51,031 nt of DNA, taken from sequence record MN158209.1; one strand, given 5' to 3'. The position numbers and the translations under genes were made by a program. The DNA comes from Escherichia phage BEK7. Positions 8,545-14,181 of the stretch are shown here, in pieces. The notes under the pieces are model-generated. The model saw only the letters and a list, made by a program, of their open reading frames with translations, was not told the DNA's origin and searched no databases. Within the stretch, counting starts at the first letter, position 1, and the number at the start of each line of letters is the position of its first letter.

Positions 8545-8980
8545 AAACTACACGATAAGGGAATTTCACGGCAACATTGATGCGTGGATAAACGCCGTTG
8601 ATAGTGGATTAAAAGATTGCGTGGAGTTGTTCGCCGAAAAAGTACACACAGATTTGGTTAAGCGTTCTCCGGTTGATACTGGTCGTTATCGTGCAAACTG
8701 GCAGGTAACAGCAAACAAGCCGCCATTGTATGCGCTTAATCAGTACGATAAGCACGGAGACAAAACGATCGCGGAAGGAAAACGTGCCATATACGCAATA
8801 TTACGAGGTGGCGGCGCAGTAAGAGCTATTTATTTTTCCAACATGCTTATTTATGCTAACGCGCTTGAGTACGGTCATTCAAAACAAGCGCCAGCGGGTG
8901 TGCTTGGTATTGTTGCCGTGAAATTGCGTTCATATATGGCTGAAGCAATAAAAGAGTCGAGGGCTAAAAATGCACTATGA
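8537..8980 (+). CDS. neck / tail completion protein (putative)
   Basis: 147-aa ORF overlapping neighbours; positional. Confidence 0.4.
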   Translation: MAKNYTIREFHGNIDAWINAVDSGLKDCVELFAEKVHTDLVKRSPVDTGRYRANWQVTANKPPLYALNQYDKHGDKTIAEGKRAIYAILRGGGAVRAIYFSNMLIYANALEYGHSKQAPAGVLGIVAVKLRSYMAEAIKESRAKNAL

Positions 8981-9479
8981 TGATATATTCACATACAAAG
9001 ATGGACTTATTTACTGGAAGATTCAGATTAAAGATCAGTCAAAATGTAAGTATCCTTGTTCTGTTGGCGACGTAGCTGGAAATGTAAATAATCGCGGATA
9101 CGTTGTTGTTAATATGTTTGGCGGTCAGTTTAGGGTTCATCGCATAGTTTGGGAGATGCACAACGGGCCAATTCCTGACGGCATGGAGATTGACCATATT
9201 AATCACAACACAACTGACAACAGAATTGAGAATCTAAGGATTGTTGATAGATCTGGAAACATGAGAAACAAAACAATCGACAAAAGAAACTCAAGCGGAG
9301 TTACCGGTGTTTACTATCATCGAAAAAACAAGAAATGGTACGCTCAAATAATGCACAACAAAAAGAGGTTGCACTTAGGTTTCTTTGTTAGCTTTGATGA
9401 AGCTGCTAAAGCAAGAAAAGATGCAGAATTAAATTTTGGATACCACAAAAATCACGGAGTTCAACATGAGTCACTATGA
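8970..9479 (+). CDS. HNH homing endonuclease (HNH_3 + AP2-like domain)
   Basis: Motif HRIVWEMHNGPIPDGMEIDHINHNTTDNRIENLRIV plus C-terminal AP2-like segment; inserted within the structural operon. Confidence 0.85.
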   Translation: MHYDDIFTYKDGLIYWKIQIKDQSKCKYPCSVGDVAGNVNNRGYVVVNMFGGQFRVHRIVWEMHNGPIPDGMEIDHINHNTTDNRIENLRIVDRSGNMRNKTIDKRNSSGVTGVYYHRKNKKWYAQIMHNKKRLHLGFFVSFDEAAKARKDAELNFGYHKNHGVQHESL

Positions 9480-9867
9480 ATTAATGCTATCGGCGCGTAA
9501 GGCGCTGGCGACTGAATACGAAAGCAGATTCATGATCGCTTATGAAAACGTAGAGTTTACGCCACCTGGTGACGGTTCGCCGTGGTTGAAGTTTGACTAT
9601 GCCGAAGTTGACACAGAATACTTGTCATTGGATCGCAAATGCGTTTCTTATATCGGAATGATTCAGGTTGGTATTGTGTTTCCACCAGGTTACGGAACTG
9701 ACAGGCCGCGTGTGCTCGCTAAAGAGATTGCGCAATTCTTTTACGATGGTAAAATGTTGGAGCATGGTTATATATATGAGGGTGCAAGAGTTCACAAGCC
9801 GCTCAAGAGTGAAAGCGGCTGGCTTCTCCCAATAAGGTTTTATGTTCGAATTGAAACAAAGGAGTAA
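9466..9867 (+). CDS. tail completion protein (putative)
   Basis: ATG after GGAG; positional. Confidence 0.4.
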   Translation: MSHYELMLSARKALATEYESRFMIAYENVEFTPPGDGSPWLKFDYAEVDTEYLSLDRKCVSYIGMIQVGIVFPPGYGTDRPRVLAKEIAQFFYDGKMLEHGYIYEGARVHKPLKSESGWLLPIRFYVRIETKE

Positions 9868-9872
9868 AAATT

Positions 9873-10535
9873 ATGCATTTACCAAATGGATCGCAAGTTT
9901 TCGTTGAGAGCAATCGCGGCAGCGAAATCCAAGCAACGGCAGTATCAAACGCTAAAGATCCTGTGTTCACCGTTGCATCTGGTGGCACTGCGTACAAGAA
10001 AGGAGATTATGTAATCATCACTGCGTCCTCCTGGGGTAAGCTGATTGATCGTGTTATGCGTGTAAAGGCTAACGGTGAAGAAACAAGCGTAACTCTTGAG
10101 GGTGTTGATACTACAGATCAGAACGTGTTCCCGACTGGCGGAACTGCATCTTTTGCCAAGATTGATGCATGGACTGAGATCCCTTGCGTTCAGGATTTGT
10201 CGCAGGACGGCGGCGAACAGCAATACTATACTTATCAGTGTTTGGCAGACGACCAGGAACAGCAGTTGCCTACCTATAAGAGCGCCATTTCTCTGACCTA
10301 CACTTTTGCGCACGAATACGATAACGCGATCTATCCGTTACTTCGTGCAGCAGACGAATCCGGTGAAGTAAAGGCGCTTCGCATGTATGTACCAAAAGCA
10401 AAAGAAATGCGCCTTTGGGCTGGTGTGCTTTCTTTCAACGAGATCCCACAAACGGCGGTAAACGAAATGGAAACCGTTTCTTTGTCGGTATCCCTGAAAG
10501 GTCGCTTTACTTTCTTGCCGTCTACTCAGGCTTAA
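9873..10535 (+). CDS. major tail protein
   Basis: 220 aa, RBS AAGGAG, directly upstream of the chaperone/tape-measure block; terminator downstream. Confidence 0.6.
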   Translation: MHLPNGSQVFVESNRGSEIQATAVSNAKDPVFTVASGGTAYKKGDYVIITASSWGKLIDRVMRVKANGEETSVTLEGVDTTDQNVFPTGGTASFAKIDAWTEIPCVQDLSQDGGEQQYYTYQCLADDQEQQLPTYKSAISLTYTFAHEYDNAIYPLLRAADESGEVKALRMYVPKAKEMRLWAGVLSFNEIPQTAVNEMETVSLSVSLKGRFTFLPSTQA

Positions 10536-10539
10536 TTTA

Positions 10540-10566
10540 AAGGGGCGCATTGCGTCCCTTTTTTAT
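10540..10566 (+). terminator. rho-independent terminator after major tail gene
   Basis: GC-rich imperfect hairpin GGGGCGCATTGCGTCCC then TTTTTT. Confidence 0.5.
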
Positions 10567-10606
10567 TTGATGTAATATCACCTCAATATTTAACCACTCA
10601 GGAGAA

Positions 10607-10927
10607 ATGACAATGGCTAAAATGAAATTGACTCTTGCCCCGCTTCCAGATTTCAAACTTCCAGTTAAATTTGTATTGCCGGATGGTAACGAGCAAAAAA
10701 TTGTGTTTACCGTTAAGCATAAAAAGGCCAGCGAGATTCAAGAGCTTTACCAGAAAGAAGGTATTAAAGATCCTGAATTCATCATGAATGTTGCCGTGGG
10801 TTGGGATCTGGAAGAAGAATTCAACGAAGAAAACGCGCAACTGTTAGTTGATTATTATCCTGGCGCGGCGCTTGCTCTTATGGGATCTTATTTGAGCGCG
10901 CTGGCAGGGCAACGCGTAAAAAACTAA
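10607..10927 (+). CDS. tail assembly chaperone (G-like)
   Basis: 106-aa ORF directly upstream of tape measure, ending just after slippery A_AAA_AAC. Confidence 0.7.
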   Translation: MTMAKMKLTLAPLPDFKLPVKFVLPDGNEQKIVFTVKHKKASEIQELYQKEGIKDPEFIMNVAVGWDLEEEFNEENAQLLVDYYPGAALALMGSYLSALAGQRVKN

Positions 10928-11238
10928 AACGGGCGGTTTATCTGTATTATCAGAAACCGCCGACAGACGCAGAGCTTGAGGCCGTTGGGCTTACAAGGGC
11001 AGACTATGAAGGAGAAGATCCGCCAGAGGTTATATTTGATGAAAGCATGATGCAATCATGGGATATATTTTGCGCAATGCAAACGCAATGGAGATGTTCT
11101 GGCGGTGGCGCTTACGGATTTGATTACAACGTTCTCCCGATGCTTTTTGAGATTTACAAGGTTGAGGATCGCGAGATGGCGCTAAACGACTTGCGAATCA
11201 TGGAGCAAAAAGCACTTGAAATGATGCATTCAAAATAA
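10607..11238 (+). CDS. tail assembly chaperone -1 frameshift fusion product (GT-like)
   Basis: The -1 frame is open from the slippery heptamer 10918-10924 to the stop at 11236-11238 (verified codon by codon); the second ORF (11047-11238) is in exactly the -1 frame. Confidence 0.6.
10918..10924 (+). other. programmed -1 ribosomal frameshift slippery heptamer A_AAA_AAC
   Basis: X_XXY_YYZ heptamer just before the chaperone stop codon, -1 frame open downstream. Confidence 0.6.
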
Positions 11239-11260
11239 GCGCCTACGGGCGCTTTTTTAT
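11237..11260 (+). terminator. rho-independent terminator between chaperone and tape measure
   Basis: AGCGCC-TACG-GGCGCT then TTTTTT. Confidence 0.6.
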
Positions 11261-11277
11261 TACCAGGAGGATTAATA

Positions 11278-14181
11278 ATGTCAGAACAATACGCAGGATT
11301 GACGCTTGGGGTTGACGTTTCTCAACTCAACAATGCTGTAAAGTCTTTGCAGCAATTCAAGAAGGCAAACGACGAAGCAAAGAAAGGAGTTGAGAGCTTT
11401 GTTAATGAGGAAGAAATTGCAAAGCAAAGAGCAAAGCAATTAGCTGATGAATTGGCGAAACAGAGCCGTGAATTTAAGAGAATTCAGGATACAGTTGATC
11501 CGACAGCGGCAAAAATGCGCAAGCTGTCACAGGCAGCAAGTGATCTTGATAAGCTATGGAAAAAAGGGATTGTACCTGATGAAACATTCTTCCAATTAGG
11601 GAGCATGTTGGAAACTCAGATCAGTAAGCTGGAGCGTAATAAAAAGGCGTTAACGGAAGAAGGCCGTGCAGCACTTGAGGAATCAAAAGCCAAAGAGAAA
11701 GCAGCGTTAGCCGGAAAAACTTTCCTTGCGGATCTGGAATGGCAAGCCTCAGCGCTTGGCAAAACAAAATCCGAATTGCTGGAAATGAAAGCGGCGCAAC
11801 TTGGCGTAAGTGCTCAGGCCGCGCCATTTATTGCACAGCTTAAAGCGCAAGAAAAACAGATGAAGTTAACCGGAATTAGCGCGGGGCAATACAAGCAAGC
11901 TATGGCGCAACTTCCGGCTCAGATCACTGACGTTGTAACGTCGCTGGCTTCCGGTATGCCCGTTTGGTTAGTTGCAATCCAGCAGGGTGGACAGATTAAG
12001 GATTCTTTCGGCGGCGTTGGTAATACGTTTAAAGTGCTGTTGTCGTTTCTGAATCCGGTAAACGTTGGCCTTGCCGCATTAGCCGTTTCAATGGGTGCTA
12101 TTGTTAAAGCTGGTTATGATGCGTATAAATCGCAACGTGACTTGCAAGAGGCGTTGGCTCTGACTGGTGGATATGCTGGCACAAGCGGCTCACAGTTCGA
12201 TAATCTGGAGCAGGACATTAATAACAGCACTGACGCTACGATAGGAAACATACGATCCATCGCAACAGAGCTTGCAAAATCAGGCAAATTCACGATTGAT
12301 CAGATTAAAGCGATCACAAAGACTACCGCTCAGTGGTCAACGGTAACTGGTGAATCAAGCGACAAGATAACCGATTACTTTAATAAGATTGCTGGTGATC
12401 CGGTTAAAGGTCTTGCAGAGCTAAACGAACAATTCAACTTTTTAAGCGAAGGGCAGTTAACTTATATTGCAGACCTTGAGAAAACGAAAGGCAAAACAGA
12501 GGCTGTAACGACGGCAACAAAGTTATTTGCTGATGTTATGGATCAGAGATTAGCTGAACTGGCAGACTCCGCAACGCCATTAGAAAAGATGTGGACGGAC
12601 ATTAAAAAATGGGCGTCAGATGCATGGGGTTGGGTTGGGGATCACACGCTGGCGGCGCTGAACCTGATTATTGACGTTGTAGCCGGAACAGTTGAGCAAG
12701 TTCGTTATTTGCTTAATCAGGGTGATATTCTCATTGGTGAATTTATTGTATCTGCAACAAAGGCTATGCAAAAAATACCTGGTCTTGATGGCGTTGGTGA
12801 TTCAGTAATTGCACAGCAGCAACAGATCATTAATAAATCAAAAGAGCAAAACAAGGAGCTATTAAAATCAATTGCCGAACGTAACGAGAGAGTCAAAAAA
12901 GGCGAGCAAGGTTACATTGACATGATGAAAAATCGTGCGGCGGTTGAACAGCAATATGCGACAAAAACAAAAGATAATATCAGGAAGGAAGCCGAGGAAT
13001 TATCAAAGCGAGATAAAGTTACAAAAGTTAAGGTTTCGGCTGGAGATAAACTTGAAGAACAATATCAGCGTGATATCCTGGCGTTAGAAACTCAATTAAG
13101 AGTTTTGAAAGAGCACAAGACGATCACAGATACCATAAGCCAGCAACGTAAATCTTTATGGGCTGAACAAGCTAAAATTCAGATTTTGCAAGAAGCCTCA
13201 ACAAAGCGGCAACTTACTGATGAAGAAAAAAGCATTTTAGCCAACAAAGATAAGATCTTAGCCATGGCTGAACAAAAAGCTATTTTAGGCGATCAGATTG
13301 TTGCGCAAACGCGCCTTAATCAGTTGCAAGATAGCTCAATCAAGTTTATCCAGCAGCAGAAAGCAGCAACAGAAGCACTAGCAAAAACCAGAGGGTTGAG
13401 CGAGCGTGAATCAGCAAGAGCGGCGGAACGTGCAAAGGTTGAATCTGATTATCTTGCTAATGGAGGGCAGAAAGAAGATCCGCAACTTAAATCCATGATG
13501 GATGCCTTAGACAACCGCTATAAAGAGGAAGATGCTAAACGTGCTGATTGGTTGGCTGGCGCTAAAAATGCATTTGCTGAGTACGGCGAGGAAGCAATGA
13601 ACATGTATGATAATATCGGCAACATTGCGAGCCAGGCGCTAAACGGTCTATCGCAACAAATGGCTGATTTTTTGACTACTGGACAAGCAAACTTCAAAGA
13701 CTTTGCAAAATCGATCATTAGCCTGATTGTTCAGATGATTACGAAGATGGTTATCTTTAATGCCATATCTGGTGCGATGGGCGGTGACACTTGGACGATT
13801 GGAAGCCTTCTTAAAAATGTTGGATTTGCAACTGGTGGGTACACTGGCGACGGAGGGAAGTATGAGCCAGCAGGTGTTGTTCATAAAGGCGAGTTTGTCA
13901 TGACTAAGGAGGCCACGAAGCGGATCGGAGTTGGAAATCTTTACAAAATGATGCGCGGTTATGCAAATGGCGGCGTTGTTGGTGGAGCTTCATACACTGG
14001 AGGCGGAGTTTCATCTGGAGCCACAAATCTTAATATTGGCGGGATCAGCGTTGATATTAACAACGGAAGCGATCCGAAAGGGTTGGAGACTGGCGTAAAA
14101 ATGATTTTCACTGATATGATTAAGCGTTCCTGTACGCAGGGTGGGGAAGTTTACGAATTTGTTATGTCTAAGCGGGGGTGA
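11278..14181 (+). CDS. tail tape measure protein
   Basis: 967 aa, coiled-coil-rich N-terminal two thirds, Gly-rich C-terminus, follows chaperone pair. Confidence 0.85.
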   Translation: MSEQYAGLTLGVDVSQLNNAVKSLQQFKKANDEAKKGVESFVNEEEIAKQRAKQLADELAKQSREFKRIQDTVDPTAAKMRKLSQAASDLDKLWKKGIVPDETFFQLGSMLETQISKLERNKKALTEEGRAALEESKAKEKAALAGKTFLADLEWQASALGKTKSELLEMKAAQLGVSAQAAPFIAQLKAQEKQMKLTGISAGQYKQAMAQLPAQITDVVTSLASGMPVWLVAIQQGGQIKDSFGGVGNTFKVLLSFLNPVNVGLAALAVSMGAIVKAGYDAYKSQRDLQEALALTGGYAGTSGSQFDNLEQDINNSTDATIGNIRSIATELAKSGKFTIDQIKAITKTTAQWSTVTGESSDKITDYFNKIAGDPVKGLAELNEQFNFLSEGQLTYIADLEKTKGKTEAVTTATKLFADVMDQRLAELADSATPLEKMWTDIKKWASDAWGWVGDHTLAALNLIIDVVAGTVEQVRYLLNQGDILIGEFIVSATKAMQKIPGLDGVGDSVIAQQQQIINKSKEQNKELLKSIAERNERVKKGEQGYIDMMKNRAAVEQQYATKTKDNIRKEAEELSKRDKVTKVKVSAGDKLEEQYQRDILALETQLRVLKEHKTITDTISQQRKSLWAEQAKIQILQEASTKRQLTDEEKSILANKDKILAMAEQKAILGDQIVAQTRLNQLQDSSIKFIQQQKAATEALAKTRGLSERESARAAERAKVESDYLANGGQKEDPQLKSMMDALDNRYKEEDAKRADWLAGAKNAFAEYGEEAMNMYDNIGNIASQALNGLSQQMADFLTTGQANFKDFAKSIISLIVQMITKMVIFNAISGAMGGDTWTIGSLLKNVGFATGGYTGDGGKYEPAGVVHKGEFVMTKEATKRIGVGNLYKMMRGYANGGVVGGASYTGGGVSSGATNLNIGGISVDINNGSDPKGLETGVKMIFTDMIKRSCTQGGEVYEFVMSKRG

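What the first reader, a model, noticed from the sequence alone, without database searches (positions are those of the whole stretch)
10607..11238. Programmed -1 frameshift in the tail assembly chaperone (G/GT-like)
The chaperone ORF ends at 10927 just after the slippery heptamer A_AAA_AAC (10918-10924). I followed the -1 frame codon by codon from that heptamer and it stays open to 11238, yielding an extended fusion product. This matches the conserved G/GT frameshift of long-tailed phages. A terminator hairpin follows at 11237-11260, just before the tape measure gene.
Basis: partly seen in the sequence, partly recalled or inferred. Interest (0 to 1): 0.4.

Follow-up and report, generated by a model that had tools for sequence, protein, structure and literature searches.

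The report
Known tail-chaperone frameshift in T1-like phage
This is the usual "G/GT" trick of long-tailed phages, where a few ribosomes slip back one base at the end of the tail-chaperone gene to make a longer fusion protein; it is real by comparative evidence, but it is already annotated in phage T1 and close relatives, so it is ordinary.

Summary
The window is Escherichia phage BEK1-23 (Drexlerviridae, a T1-like phage). A tail assembly chaperone ORF (Pfam Phage_TAC_4) ends at 10927, directly after an in-phase A_AAA_AAC heptamer (10918-10924). The -1 frame is open from 10852 to 11238 and encodes a DUF1799 domain. A terminator follows at 11237-11260. The likely start is ATG 10613, not 10607.

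The frameshift reading is strongly supported by comparison:
- In 78 distinct relatives (G identity down to about 40%) the extension is always in the -1 frame and 102-109 aa long.
- A recognised slip motif always sits in the last two or three sense codons: A_AAA_AAC in 65, G_GGA_AAC in 7, A_AAG in 5, A_AAA in 1.
- The stretch between the slip site and the first ATG (11047) varies mostly at third codon positions of the -1 frame, and in the window it holds no ATG, GTG or TTG.

A -16 kcal/mol hairpin lies 7 nt downstream. It is kept in most lineages, but without compensatory changes, and several lineages lack it.

The same frameshift product is already a joined CDS in the GenBank records of T1 and Stevie, and exact fused proteins are also deposited for LL5, Sazh and U136B. 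Genome papers mention it. This phage's own record missed it. No experimental proof was found for this family.

The parts
9873..10535 (+). Major tail protein gene, the upstream neighbour. This phage's GenBank record mislabels it 'tail fibers protein'.
   Evidence: ORF list. Orthologues are annotated as major tail protein in SP-126, Stevie and T1.
10539..10567 (+). Terminator-like hairpin (stem 10539-10561) plus T-run, after the major tail gene.
   Evidence: A terminator is annotated at the same place in Stevie.
10600..10605 (+). Shine-Dalgarno AGGAGA serving the G start at 10613.
   Evidence: Sequence. AGGAGA, or a close variant, lies 7 nt upstream of the conserved ATG in most of the 38 relatives.
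10613..10927 (+). Gene G: tail assembly (tape measure) chaperone, 104 aa, read in the 0 frame.
   Evidence: Pfam Phage_TAC_4, E 2.3e-37. phrog_17368 and phrog_569. Start conservation.
10918..10924 (+). Slippery heptamer A_AAA_AAC, in phase with the 0-frame codons GTA AAA AAC.
   Evidence: Invariant in 38 of 38 close relatives. The last base of the preceding codon stays A while its amino acid changes (GTA, GCA, GAA). In distant relatives it is replaced by G_GGA_AAC, A_AAG or A_AAA.
10925..10927 (+). 0-frame stop TAA, directly abutting the heptamer.
   Evidence: In all 72 relatives that carry a heptamer, a stop (TAA, TGA or TAG) abuts it.
10932..10961 (+). Hairpin 7 nt downstream of the heptamer; a candidate frameshift stimulator.
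   Evidence: MFE -16.1 kcal/mol, z -3.55. 90.5% of cells are paired across relatives, against 31-58% in slid controls, but with essentially no compensatory change (one cell of 200). It is not predicted in L021-23, Rtp, L042 or the A_AAG lineage.
10924..11238 (+). T extension, read in the -1 frame: 104 codons from CTA at 10924 to the stop TAA at 11236-11238. The -1 frame is open from 10852.
   Evidence: Pfam DUF1799, E 6.8e-13, matching residues 22-101. phrog_17368 positions 109-211. Third-position-biased variation (0.14/0.125/0.346) between the slip site and 11047.
10613..11238 (+). Predicted GT fusion product, 208 aa: codons 10613-10924 read in the 0 frame, then a -1 slip and codons 10924-11235.
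   Evidence: Inference from the parts above. The orthologous fused proteins are deposited for T1 (AAP50000.2) and Stevie (AIX12284.1).
11047..11238 (+). The 63-aa 'hypothetical protein' annotated in this phage's GenBank record. It is most likely only the C-terminal part of T.
   Evidence: This is the first ATG/GTG/TTG in the frame. The DUF1799 domain begins upstream of it.
11237..11260 (+). Intrinsic terminator (stem 11237-11254 plus T-run) overlapping the T stop codon.
   Evidence: The hairpin is kept with different stem sequences in different lineages. It is annotated as a rho-independent terminator in T1 and as a terminator in Stevie.
11278..14181 (+). Tape measure protein gene, the downstream neighbour.
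   Evidence: ORF list; GenBank annotation.

Best explanation
This is a programmed -1 ribosomal frameshift that makes two tail assembly chaperones from one start codon.

Most ribosomes start at ATG 10613, read 104 codons and terminate at TAA 10925-10927. This gives the short chaperone G (Phage_TAC_4).

A small fraction slips back one base. With tRNA-Lys on AAA (10919-21) and tRNA-Asn on AAC (10922-24), both tRNAs re-pair with AAA AAA (10918-23). Reading resumes at CTA (10924) in the -1 frame and runs to TAA 11236-11238. This gives a 208-aa GT fusion whose C-terminal half is a DUF1799 domain.

Shown here by sequence and comparison:
- the two frames and the in-phase heptamer;
- purifying selection on the -1 frame from the slip site onward;
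- the absence of a start codon for T;
- the conservation, or replacement in kind, of the slip motif.

Inferred:
- The slip itself.
- Its low efficiency. A few percent is expected, because the same A6C motif gives under 2% in IS1 in E. coli, and A_AAA_AAC is much less shifty there than A_AAA_AAG.
- A boost from the hairpin 7 nt downstream, from the abutting stop codon, or from both.
- The protein roles, by analogy with lambda: G and the G part of GT coat the tape measure protein, and the T part recruits the major tail protein. Neither ends up in the virion.
For: - Frames and heptamer.
- Families: Phage_TAC_4 (E 2e-37) and DUF1799 (E 7e-13). One PHROG profile of 213 positions (phrog_17368) covers G at positions 1-107 and T at 109-211, so fused proteins define that family.
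- Close relatives: AAAAAAC plus TAA is invariant in 38 of 38 distinct sequences. The eight codons before it vary freely at third positions. The preceding codon keeps its final A while coding for V, A or E.
- Coding signature: between the slip site and the first ATG, variation by -1 frame codon position is 0.14/0.125/0.346.
- No start for T: the window has no ATG, GTG or TTG in that frame before 11047. The TTG used as a 'TfmS' start in TLS-like records is CTT here.
- Wider family: 78 distinct relatives always have a 102-109-aa extension in the -1 frame. Slip motifs are A_AAA_AAC (65), G_GGA_AAC (7), A_AAG (5) and A_AAA (1). The T parts of the variant lineages are also DUF1799.
- Hairpin: -16.1 kcal/mol, z -3.55, 7 nt after the heptamer.
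- Deposited products: T1 and Stevie carry joined CDSs, labelled 'frameshift product' in T1. Exact fused proteins also exist for LL5, Sazh and U136B.
- Literature: the Stevie, Skenny and U136B genome papers state the frameshift or slippery sequence (PMC4319613, PMC6763657, PMC8104045). A6C is the proven IS1 -1 site in E. coli, at under 2% (PMC12903888, PMC4066793). Lambda G/GT biology is reviewed in PMC5009743.
Against: - I found no direct protein or reporter evidence for any T1-like phage. All support is comparative or by annotation.
- A_AAA_AAC is a weak slip site in E. coli (PMC5009743).
- The heptamer alone is not statistically unusual in this A-rich genome.
- The hairpin shows essentially no compensatory substitutions (one cell of 200). 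Its arms also encode conserved residues (RAV...KPP). It is not predicted in several lineages that keep the slip site. Its stimulatory role is therefore unproven.
- There is no detectable sequence similarity to lambda G or T, so the protein functions are inferred by position and analogy only.
Confidence: 0.88

Rival explanations
1. G and T are two separate genes. T is translated on its own from ATG 11047 as a 63-aa protein, as this phage's GenBank record has it, and no frameshift occurs.
For: The GenBank record MN158211 annotates 10613..10927 and 11047..11238 as separate hypothetical proteins. Many relatives' records also list a separate 'TfmS' or DUF1799 ORF.
Against: - The 40 codons between the slip site and 11047 are conserved as protein, with third-position-biased variation.
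- The DUF1799 match starts 22 codons after the slip site, so a product starting at 11047 would lack the first quarter of the domain.
- The window has no ATG, GTG or TTG in the frame before 11047.
- I see no obvious Shine-Dalgarno sequence in front of 11047 (reading).
- Annotated independent starts differ between records (products of 48 to 104 aa), which is what arbitrary ORF calling gives.
Confidence: 0.04
2. The fusion is made by transcriptional slippage. RNA polymerase adds or drops an A in the A6 run, so some mRNAs carry G and T in one frame and the ribosome does not shift.
For: The slip site in this phage contains a run of six A. Sequence alone cannot separate the two routes at a homopolymer.
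Against: - Efficient bacterial transcriptional slippage is known for runs of about nine or more A or T (my own knowledge of the field, not tested here).
- Orthologous lineages use G_GGA_AAC or A_AAG, which have no long homopolymer but are classic ribosomal slip motifs (PMC4066793).
- The motif is always in the phase required for tRNA re-pairing.
Confidence: 0.04
3. The product is the same but the route differs. Only the P-site tRNA-Asn on AAC slips back onto AAA, while the ribosome waits with the stop codon TAA in an empty A site (a 'shifty stop'). The two tRNAs do not slip together. The abutting stop would then be part of the signal and would make GT output depend on release-factor activity.
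For: A stop codon (TAA, TGA or TAG) abuts the heptamer in all 72 relatives that have one. The -1-frame Leu codon that overlaps the stop is CTA in 38 of 38 close relatives and CTG where the stop is TGA, so a stop is always kept there.
Against: - The A_AAG and A_AAA lineages have one sense codon between the slip codon and the stop.
- The first three bases of the heptamer are conserved as a homopolymer (AAA or GGG). This matters only if the upstream tRNA also re-pairs, which favours tandem slippage.
- The stop may be fixed simply because the C-terminus of G is fixed.
Confidence: 0.2
4. It is a chance overlap or a sequencing artefact: a single gene broken by a one-base error, or a meaningless open frame.
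For: AAAAAAC is common in the window (30 copies). One IMG/VR relative (L024/L068) does show a broken G ORF.
Against: Seventy-eight independent, distinct sequences share the same two-frame layout, with a conserved G stop. Three GenBank genomes are identical over the 1.6-kb query around these genes.
Confidence: 0.01

Closest known systems
Phage T1 'tape measure chaperone, frameshift product' (AAP50000.2, AY216660) and its orthologues in Stevie (AIX12284.1), LL5, Sazh and U136B
   Same: Orthologous genes in the same family (Drexlerviridae). They share the same A_AAA_AAC-TAA site at the last two codons, the same -1 DUF1799 extension and the same terminator right after it. The G protein is 100% identical to Stevie's and about 53% identical to T1's.
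   Different: Nothing of substance differs. This phage's own GenBank record (MN158211) does not carry the joined CDS and instead calls a 63-aa ORF from 11047. The T part is 2 aa shorter than in Stevie.
Bacteriophage lambda G/GT (slip site G_GGA_AAG)
   Same: The gene position is the same, between the major tail gene and the tape measure gene. Both have a -1 frameshift near the end of the short chaperone ORF, an extension of comparable size, and presumably a low GT:G ratio and the same assembly role (PMC5009743).
   Different: The Pfam families differ: Phage_TAC_2 plus Phage_tail_T in lambda, against Phage_TAC_4 plus DUF1799 here. BLASTP finds no similarity. The heptamer differs. Here the 0-frame stop abuts the heptamer, whereas in lambda T starts at 10115 and G ends at 10133. 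Here a terminator separates GT from the tape measure gene.
IS1 insA/insAB' frameshift (A6C motif)
   Same: The slip sequence AAAAAAC is identical. It is used for a -1 shift in the same host, E. coli, near the end of the upstream ORF. Its measured efficiency is low (under 2%) and it yields a fusion protein (PMC12903888, PMC4066793).
   Different: It is a transposase, not a phage chaperone. No stimulator is established for IS1 (PMC4066793), while a hairpin lies 7 nt downstream here.
E. coli dnaX (A_AAA_AAG with an upstream SD-like element and a downstream hairpin)
   Same: It has an A-rich heptamer followed by a downstream stem-loop at a similar spacing.
   Different: dnaX uses the far shiftier AAG in the A site, at high efficiency, and gives a shorter product (PMC5009743, PMC4066793). 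The SD-like AGGG 9-12 nt upstream here is not conserved in relatives.

Membership tests
G/GT-type tail assembly chaperone pair with programmed -1 frameshift (Xu, Hendrix and Duda 2004 class) | The two ORFs lie between the major tail protein gene and the tape measure protein gene. | tested here: met
   Major tail gene 9873..10535, G 10613..10927, T to 11238, tape measure gene 11278..14181.
G/GT-type tail assembly chaperone pair with programmed -1 frameshift (Xu, Hendrix and Duda 2004 class) | The downstream ORF overlaps the end of the upstream ORF in the -1 frame and has no translation start of its own. | tested here: met
   The -1 frame is open from 10852. The first ATG, GTG or TTG is at 11047, 40 conserved codons after the slip site.
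G/GT-type tail assembly chaperone pair with programmed -1 frameshift (Xu, Hendrix and Duda 2004 class) | An in-phase slippery sequence (X_XXY_YYZ or Z_ZZN) lies within the overlap, near the end of G. | tested here: met
   A_AAA_AAC at 10918-10924 is the only in-phase heptamer in the ORF.
G/GT-type tail assembly chaperone pair with programmed -1 frameshift (Xu, Hendrix and Duda 2004 class) | The two-frame layout and a slip site are conserved among relatives even where the protein sequence diverges. | tested here: met
   78 distinct relatives, all with a -1 extension of 102-109 aa. [quoted passage not shown]
G/GT-type tail assembly chaperone pair with programmed -1 frameshift (Xu, Hendrix and Duda 2004 class) | Both G and a frameshifted GT protein are made, with GT as the minor species. 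| not testable with these tools
   This needs a western blot, mass spectrometry or a reporter assay. Four targeted literature searches found no such data for T1-like phages.
G/GT-type tail assembly chaperone pair with programmed -1 frameshift (Xu, Hendrix and Duda 2004 class) | G and GT are required for tail assembly, bind the tape measure protein (G) and the major tail protein (T), and are absent from virions. | not testable with these tools
   Known for lambda (PMC5009743). Here it is inferred from position only.
Pfam Phage_TAC_4 (PF08748) tail assembly chaperones | The protein scores above the family's gathering threshold. | tested here: met
   128.4 bits against a cut-off of 21.1, E 2.3e-37, covering the full length.
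Pfam DUF1799 (PF08809) | The -1 frame product scores above the family's gathering threshold. | tested here: met
   49.1 bits against a cut-off of 26, E 6.8e-13, residues 22-101 of the extension. The variant-slip lineages also match.
Lambda gpG (Phage_TAC_2) and gpT (Phage_tail_T) sequence families | Detectable sequence homology to lambda G and T. | tested here: not met
   Lambda G and T hit only PF06894 and PF06223. BLASTP against the window's G and T gives E 12 and 0.53. The two are therefore analogous in layout; common ancestry is not shown here.
Frameshift signals with a downstream RNA stimulator | A stable structure lies 5-9 nt after the slip site and is supported by covariation. | tested here: inconclusive
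   The hairpin 10932-10961 has a 7-nt spacer, -16.1 kcal/mol and z -3.55. 90.5% of cells are paired against 31-58% in slid controls, but with essentially no compensatory pairs (one cell of 200). It is not predicted in L021-23, Rtp, L042 and the A_AAG lineage.

The most novel reading that the evidence does not exclude
The stop codon that directly abuts the heptamer (A_AAA_AAC_UAA; G_GGA_AAC_UAG in distant relatives) may be a working part of the signal rather than a by-product of where G ends. It would act as a 'shifty stop', coupling GT output to termination speed. The hairpin would be an optional booster that some lineages have lost. This family would then be a natural series of interchangeable weak slip sites (A6C, G3A3C, A_AAG, A_AAA) tuned to one GT:G ratio.
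Probability: 0.2. Interest if true: 0.3.

Novelty: already known. Interest (0 to 1): 0.12.

Why it matters
The practical value is a correction to the annotation. In MN158211 (and in BEK12B, BEC3 and many other Drexlerviridae records) the 63-aa 'hypothetical protein' at 11047..11238 should be replaced by a joined 208-aa tape measure chaperone CDS. The 'tail fibers protein' upstream is the major tail protein.

Biologically this is another instance of the near-universal G/GT device of long-tailed phages, so it adds nothing conceptually new.

A modest by-product is the survey of 78 relatives. One orthologous chaperone family has swapped between four weak slip motifs at the same spot while always keeping the -1 layout. 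A conserved terminator also separates GT from the tape measure gene. This could be useful material for anyone studying how GT:G ratios are set.

Tried and rejected
- Upstream SD-like stimulator. AGGG at 10906-10909 lies 9-12 nt before the heptamer, as in dnaX. The two codons that form it vary freely at third positions in relatives (GCA/GCG/GCT/GCC and GGG/GGC/GGT/GGA). Rejected as a conserved element.
- Covariation test of the downstream hairpin. High pairing but essentially no compensatory change (one cell of 200), and RNAalifold gives only -1.7 kcal/mol for the consensus. Left as unproven.
- Prophage relatives in 185,579 bacterial and archaeal genomes. None was confirmed, which suggests relatives are rare or absent as prophages.
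- Solved structures. No PDB chain matches the GT fusion at E up to 1.
- Homology to lambda G and T. None was detectable.
- Records where a single feature lay under the whole match (tonijn, herni, Henu4_2). These turned out to leave T unannotated rather than to hold joined CDSs.
- Structure prediction was not run.
- Experimental evidence in T1-like phages. Four targeted literature searches found only annotation-level statements.

Full report
**Identity of the window.**
The region 9800-11400 is 100% identical to Escherichia phage BEK1-23 (MN158211, 51,031 bp; also BEK12B and BEC3). This is a T1-like siphovirus of the Drexlerviridae, subfamily Tempevirinae, genus Hanrivervirus. Window coordinates equal record coordinates minus 8116. 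Around the finding the gene order is: tail completion, an HNH homing endonuclease, tail terminator, major tail protein (9873..10535), the two ORFs of the finding, then the tape measure protein (11278..14181).

**Check of the observation.**
The sequence is as described.
- The ORF 10607..10927 ends with TAA at 10925-10927.
- The last sense codons are GTA AAA AAC, so AAAAAAC at 10918-10924 is in the X_XXY_YYZ phase.
- The -1 frame is open from 10852 to the TAA at 11236-11238.
- A hairpin (stem 11237-11254) followed by a T-run to 11260 fits an intrinsic terminator.

One correction concerns the start. ATG 10613, 7 nt after AGGAGA, is the start shared by all relatives. The ATG at 10607 exists in only some lineages, and GenBank uses 10613.

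On its own the heptamer is not remarkable. AAAAAAC occurs 30 times in the window against 21.5 expected. About 0.1 in-phase slippery heptamers would be expected in a 75-nt overlap by chance. It is, however, the only in-phase heptamer in the whole ORF.

**What the two reading frames encode.**
The 0-frame product is a full-length match to Pfam Phage_TAC_4, 'phage tail assembly chaperone' (E 2.3e-37). The -1 frame product matches DUF1799 (E 6.8e-13), and that match begins 22 codons after the slip site. A single PHROG profile of 213 positions (phrog_17368) is matched by G at positions 1-107 and by the -1 product at 109-211. Fused proteins of exactly this layout therefore define that family.

**Comparative evidence among close relatives.**
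- The eight codons before it all vary at synonymous third positions.
- The codon just before the Lys codon keeps its final A while coding for Val, Ala or Glu (GTA, GCA, GAA).
- AAA is never AAG, and AAC is never AAT.

This is selection on the nucleotides, not on the protein.

From the slip site onward the -1 frame is conserved as protein (KKLKRAVYL.YQKPPT...). Between the slip site and the first ATG of the window, variation by codon position is 0.14/0.125/0.346, which is the signature of a translated frame. The window has no ATG, GTG or TTG in that frame before 11047. The TTG that some annotators use as a 'TfmS' start in TLS-like phages is CTT here. A separate T gene starting at 11047, as in this phage's GenBank record, would lack the first quarter of the DUF1799 domain.

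**Comparative evidence in the wider family.**
A profile-based scan raised the set to 78 distinct G-T regions. Every one has a -1 extension of 102-109 aa, while the +1 frame closes quickly in most of the loci scanned. The slip site changes in kind but not in place:

| Slip motif and stop | Distinct regions |
|---|---|
| A_AAA_AAC + TAA | 63 |
| A_AAA_AAC + TGA | 2 |
| G_GGA_AAC + TAG | 7 |
| A_AAG (GTC TAA) | 5 |
| A_AAA (GCC TAA) | 1 |

The T parts of the variant lineages are also DUF1799. Replacing AAA by GGG in the first triplet, which keeps a homopolymer, is what the tandem-slippage model predicts. The variants without a long homopolymer argue against transcriptional slippage as the general route.

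**Possible stimulators.**
A hairpin at 10932-10961 starts 7 nt after the heptamer (-16.1 kcal/mol, z -3.55). It is kept in the T1, TLS and Hanrivervirus lineages (90.5% of cells paired, against 31-58% in slid controls). There is essentially no compensatory change (one cell of 200), and its arms also encode conserved residues. It is not predicted in L021-23, Rtp, L042 and the A_AAG lineage, all of which keep a slip site. I therefore rate it a plausible but unproven and dispensable booster.

An SD-like AGGG upstream is not conserved. A stop codon abuts the heptamer in all 72 relatives that carry a heptamer. This may matter, or may only reflect a fixed C-terminus of G.

**Mechanism and expected level.**
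The same A6C motif is the experimentally proven -1 site of IS1 in E. coli, with under 2% efficiency (PMC12903888, PMC4066793). In E. coli A_AAA_AAC is much less shifty than A_AAA_AAG (PMC5009743). A low GT:G ratio is what lambda needs, about 1:30 (PMC5009743). I therefore expect a few percent of ribosomes to produce a 208-aa GT beside the 104-aa G. The protein roles are taken from lambda by analogy: G coats the tape measure protein and T recruits the major tail protein. Sequence similarity to lambda G or T is not detectable.

**Prior knowledge.**
The T1 reference record annotates a joined CDS 'tape measure chaperone, frameshift product' (AAP50000.2) at the orthologous site, with a rho-independent terminator right after it. 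Stevie, whose G protein is identical to the window's, has the same joined CDS and a terminator feature. An exact-sequence look-up finds the fused proteins of T1, Stevie, LL5, Sazh and U136B in NCBI, but no fused protein for this phage. The Stevie, Skenny and U136B genome papers mention the conserved frameshift or slippery sequence. The finding is therefore a correct rediscovery of a known feature that this phage's own annotation missed. I found no direct experimental demonstration for any T1-like phage.

**Terminators.**
The hairpin after T keeps its structure with different stem sequences in different lineages: AGCGCC/GGCGCT, GAGCGCC/GGCGCTC, CCCGC/GCGGG and GCCGCC/GGCGG. This is compensatory change and supports a real terminator. 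A second terminator follows the major tail gene (10539-10561). No sigma-70-like promoter was found on the + strand between them. The two terminators probably step expression down from major tail protein to G/GT to tape measure protein; this last point is inference.

**Verdict.**
Novelty: already known. Interest is low. The main value is an annotation fix.

Noticed in passing
window 8970-9479 (+): An HNH/AP2-type homing endonuclease ORF (169 aa, annotated 'homing endonuclease' in GenBank) sits between the tail-completion and tail-terminator genes. The Tlsvirus relatives SP-126 and Devorator have those two genes adjacent, with no ORF between them.
   Followed up: partly
window 11237-11260 and 10539-10567 (+): Intrinsic terminators flank the G/GT cassette. 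The one after T keeps its hairpin through different stem sequences in different lineages (compensatory change) and overlaps the T stop codon. No + strand sigma-70-like promoter was detected between them. They may set the ratio of major tail protein to G to tape measure protein.
   Followed up: partly
GenBank MG065636-MG065688 (hits H4-H21): About 20 unannotated records named 'Campylobacter phage' (host C. jejuni) are 92-94% identical to this coliphage over 1.6 kb and have T1-like genome sizes. The host label looks doubtful.
   Followed up: no
loci L073, L076, L078, L080, L081; L089; L092-L099: The slip site has turned over within one orthologous chaperone family. A_AAG (GCA AAG GTC TAA), A_AAA (GCA AAA GCC TAA) and G_GGA_AAC TAG replace A_AAA_AAC TAA at the same spot, always with a -1 DUF1799 extension.
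   Followed up: yes
window 10924-10926: The first full codon read after the shift is CTA in 38 of 38 close relatives. To my knowledge CTA is a rare Leu codon in E. coli. Its last two bases are the first two of the 0-frame stop. The synonymous CTG, which would keep a stop as TGA, appears in only two more distant loci (L062, L064).
   Followed up: partly
window 9873-10535 and 11047-11238; GenBank MN158211: There are annotation errors in the source record. The major tail protein is labelled 'tail fibers protein'. The C-terminal part of T is called as a separate 63-aa hypothetical protein.
   Followed up: yes
L024 / L068 (IMGVR_UViG_2706796530_000001): In this 99% identical relative the G ORF is interrupted early, with a stop after about 59 codons. 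This is probably an assembly or sequencing error.
   Followed up: no
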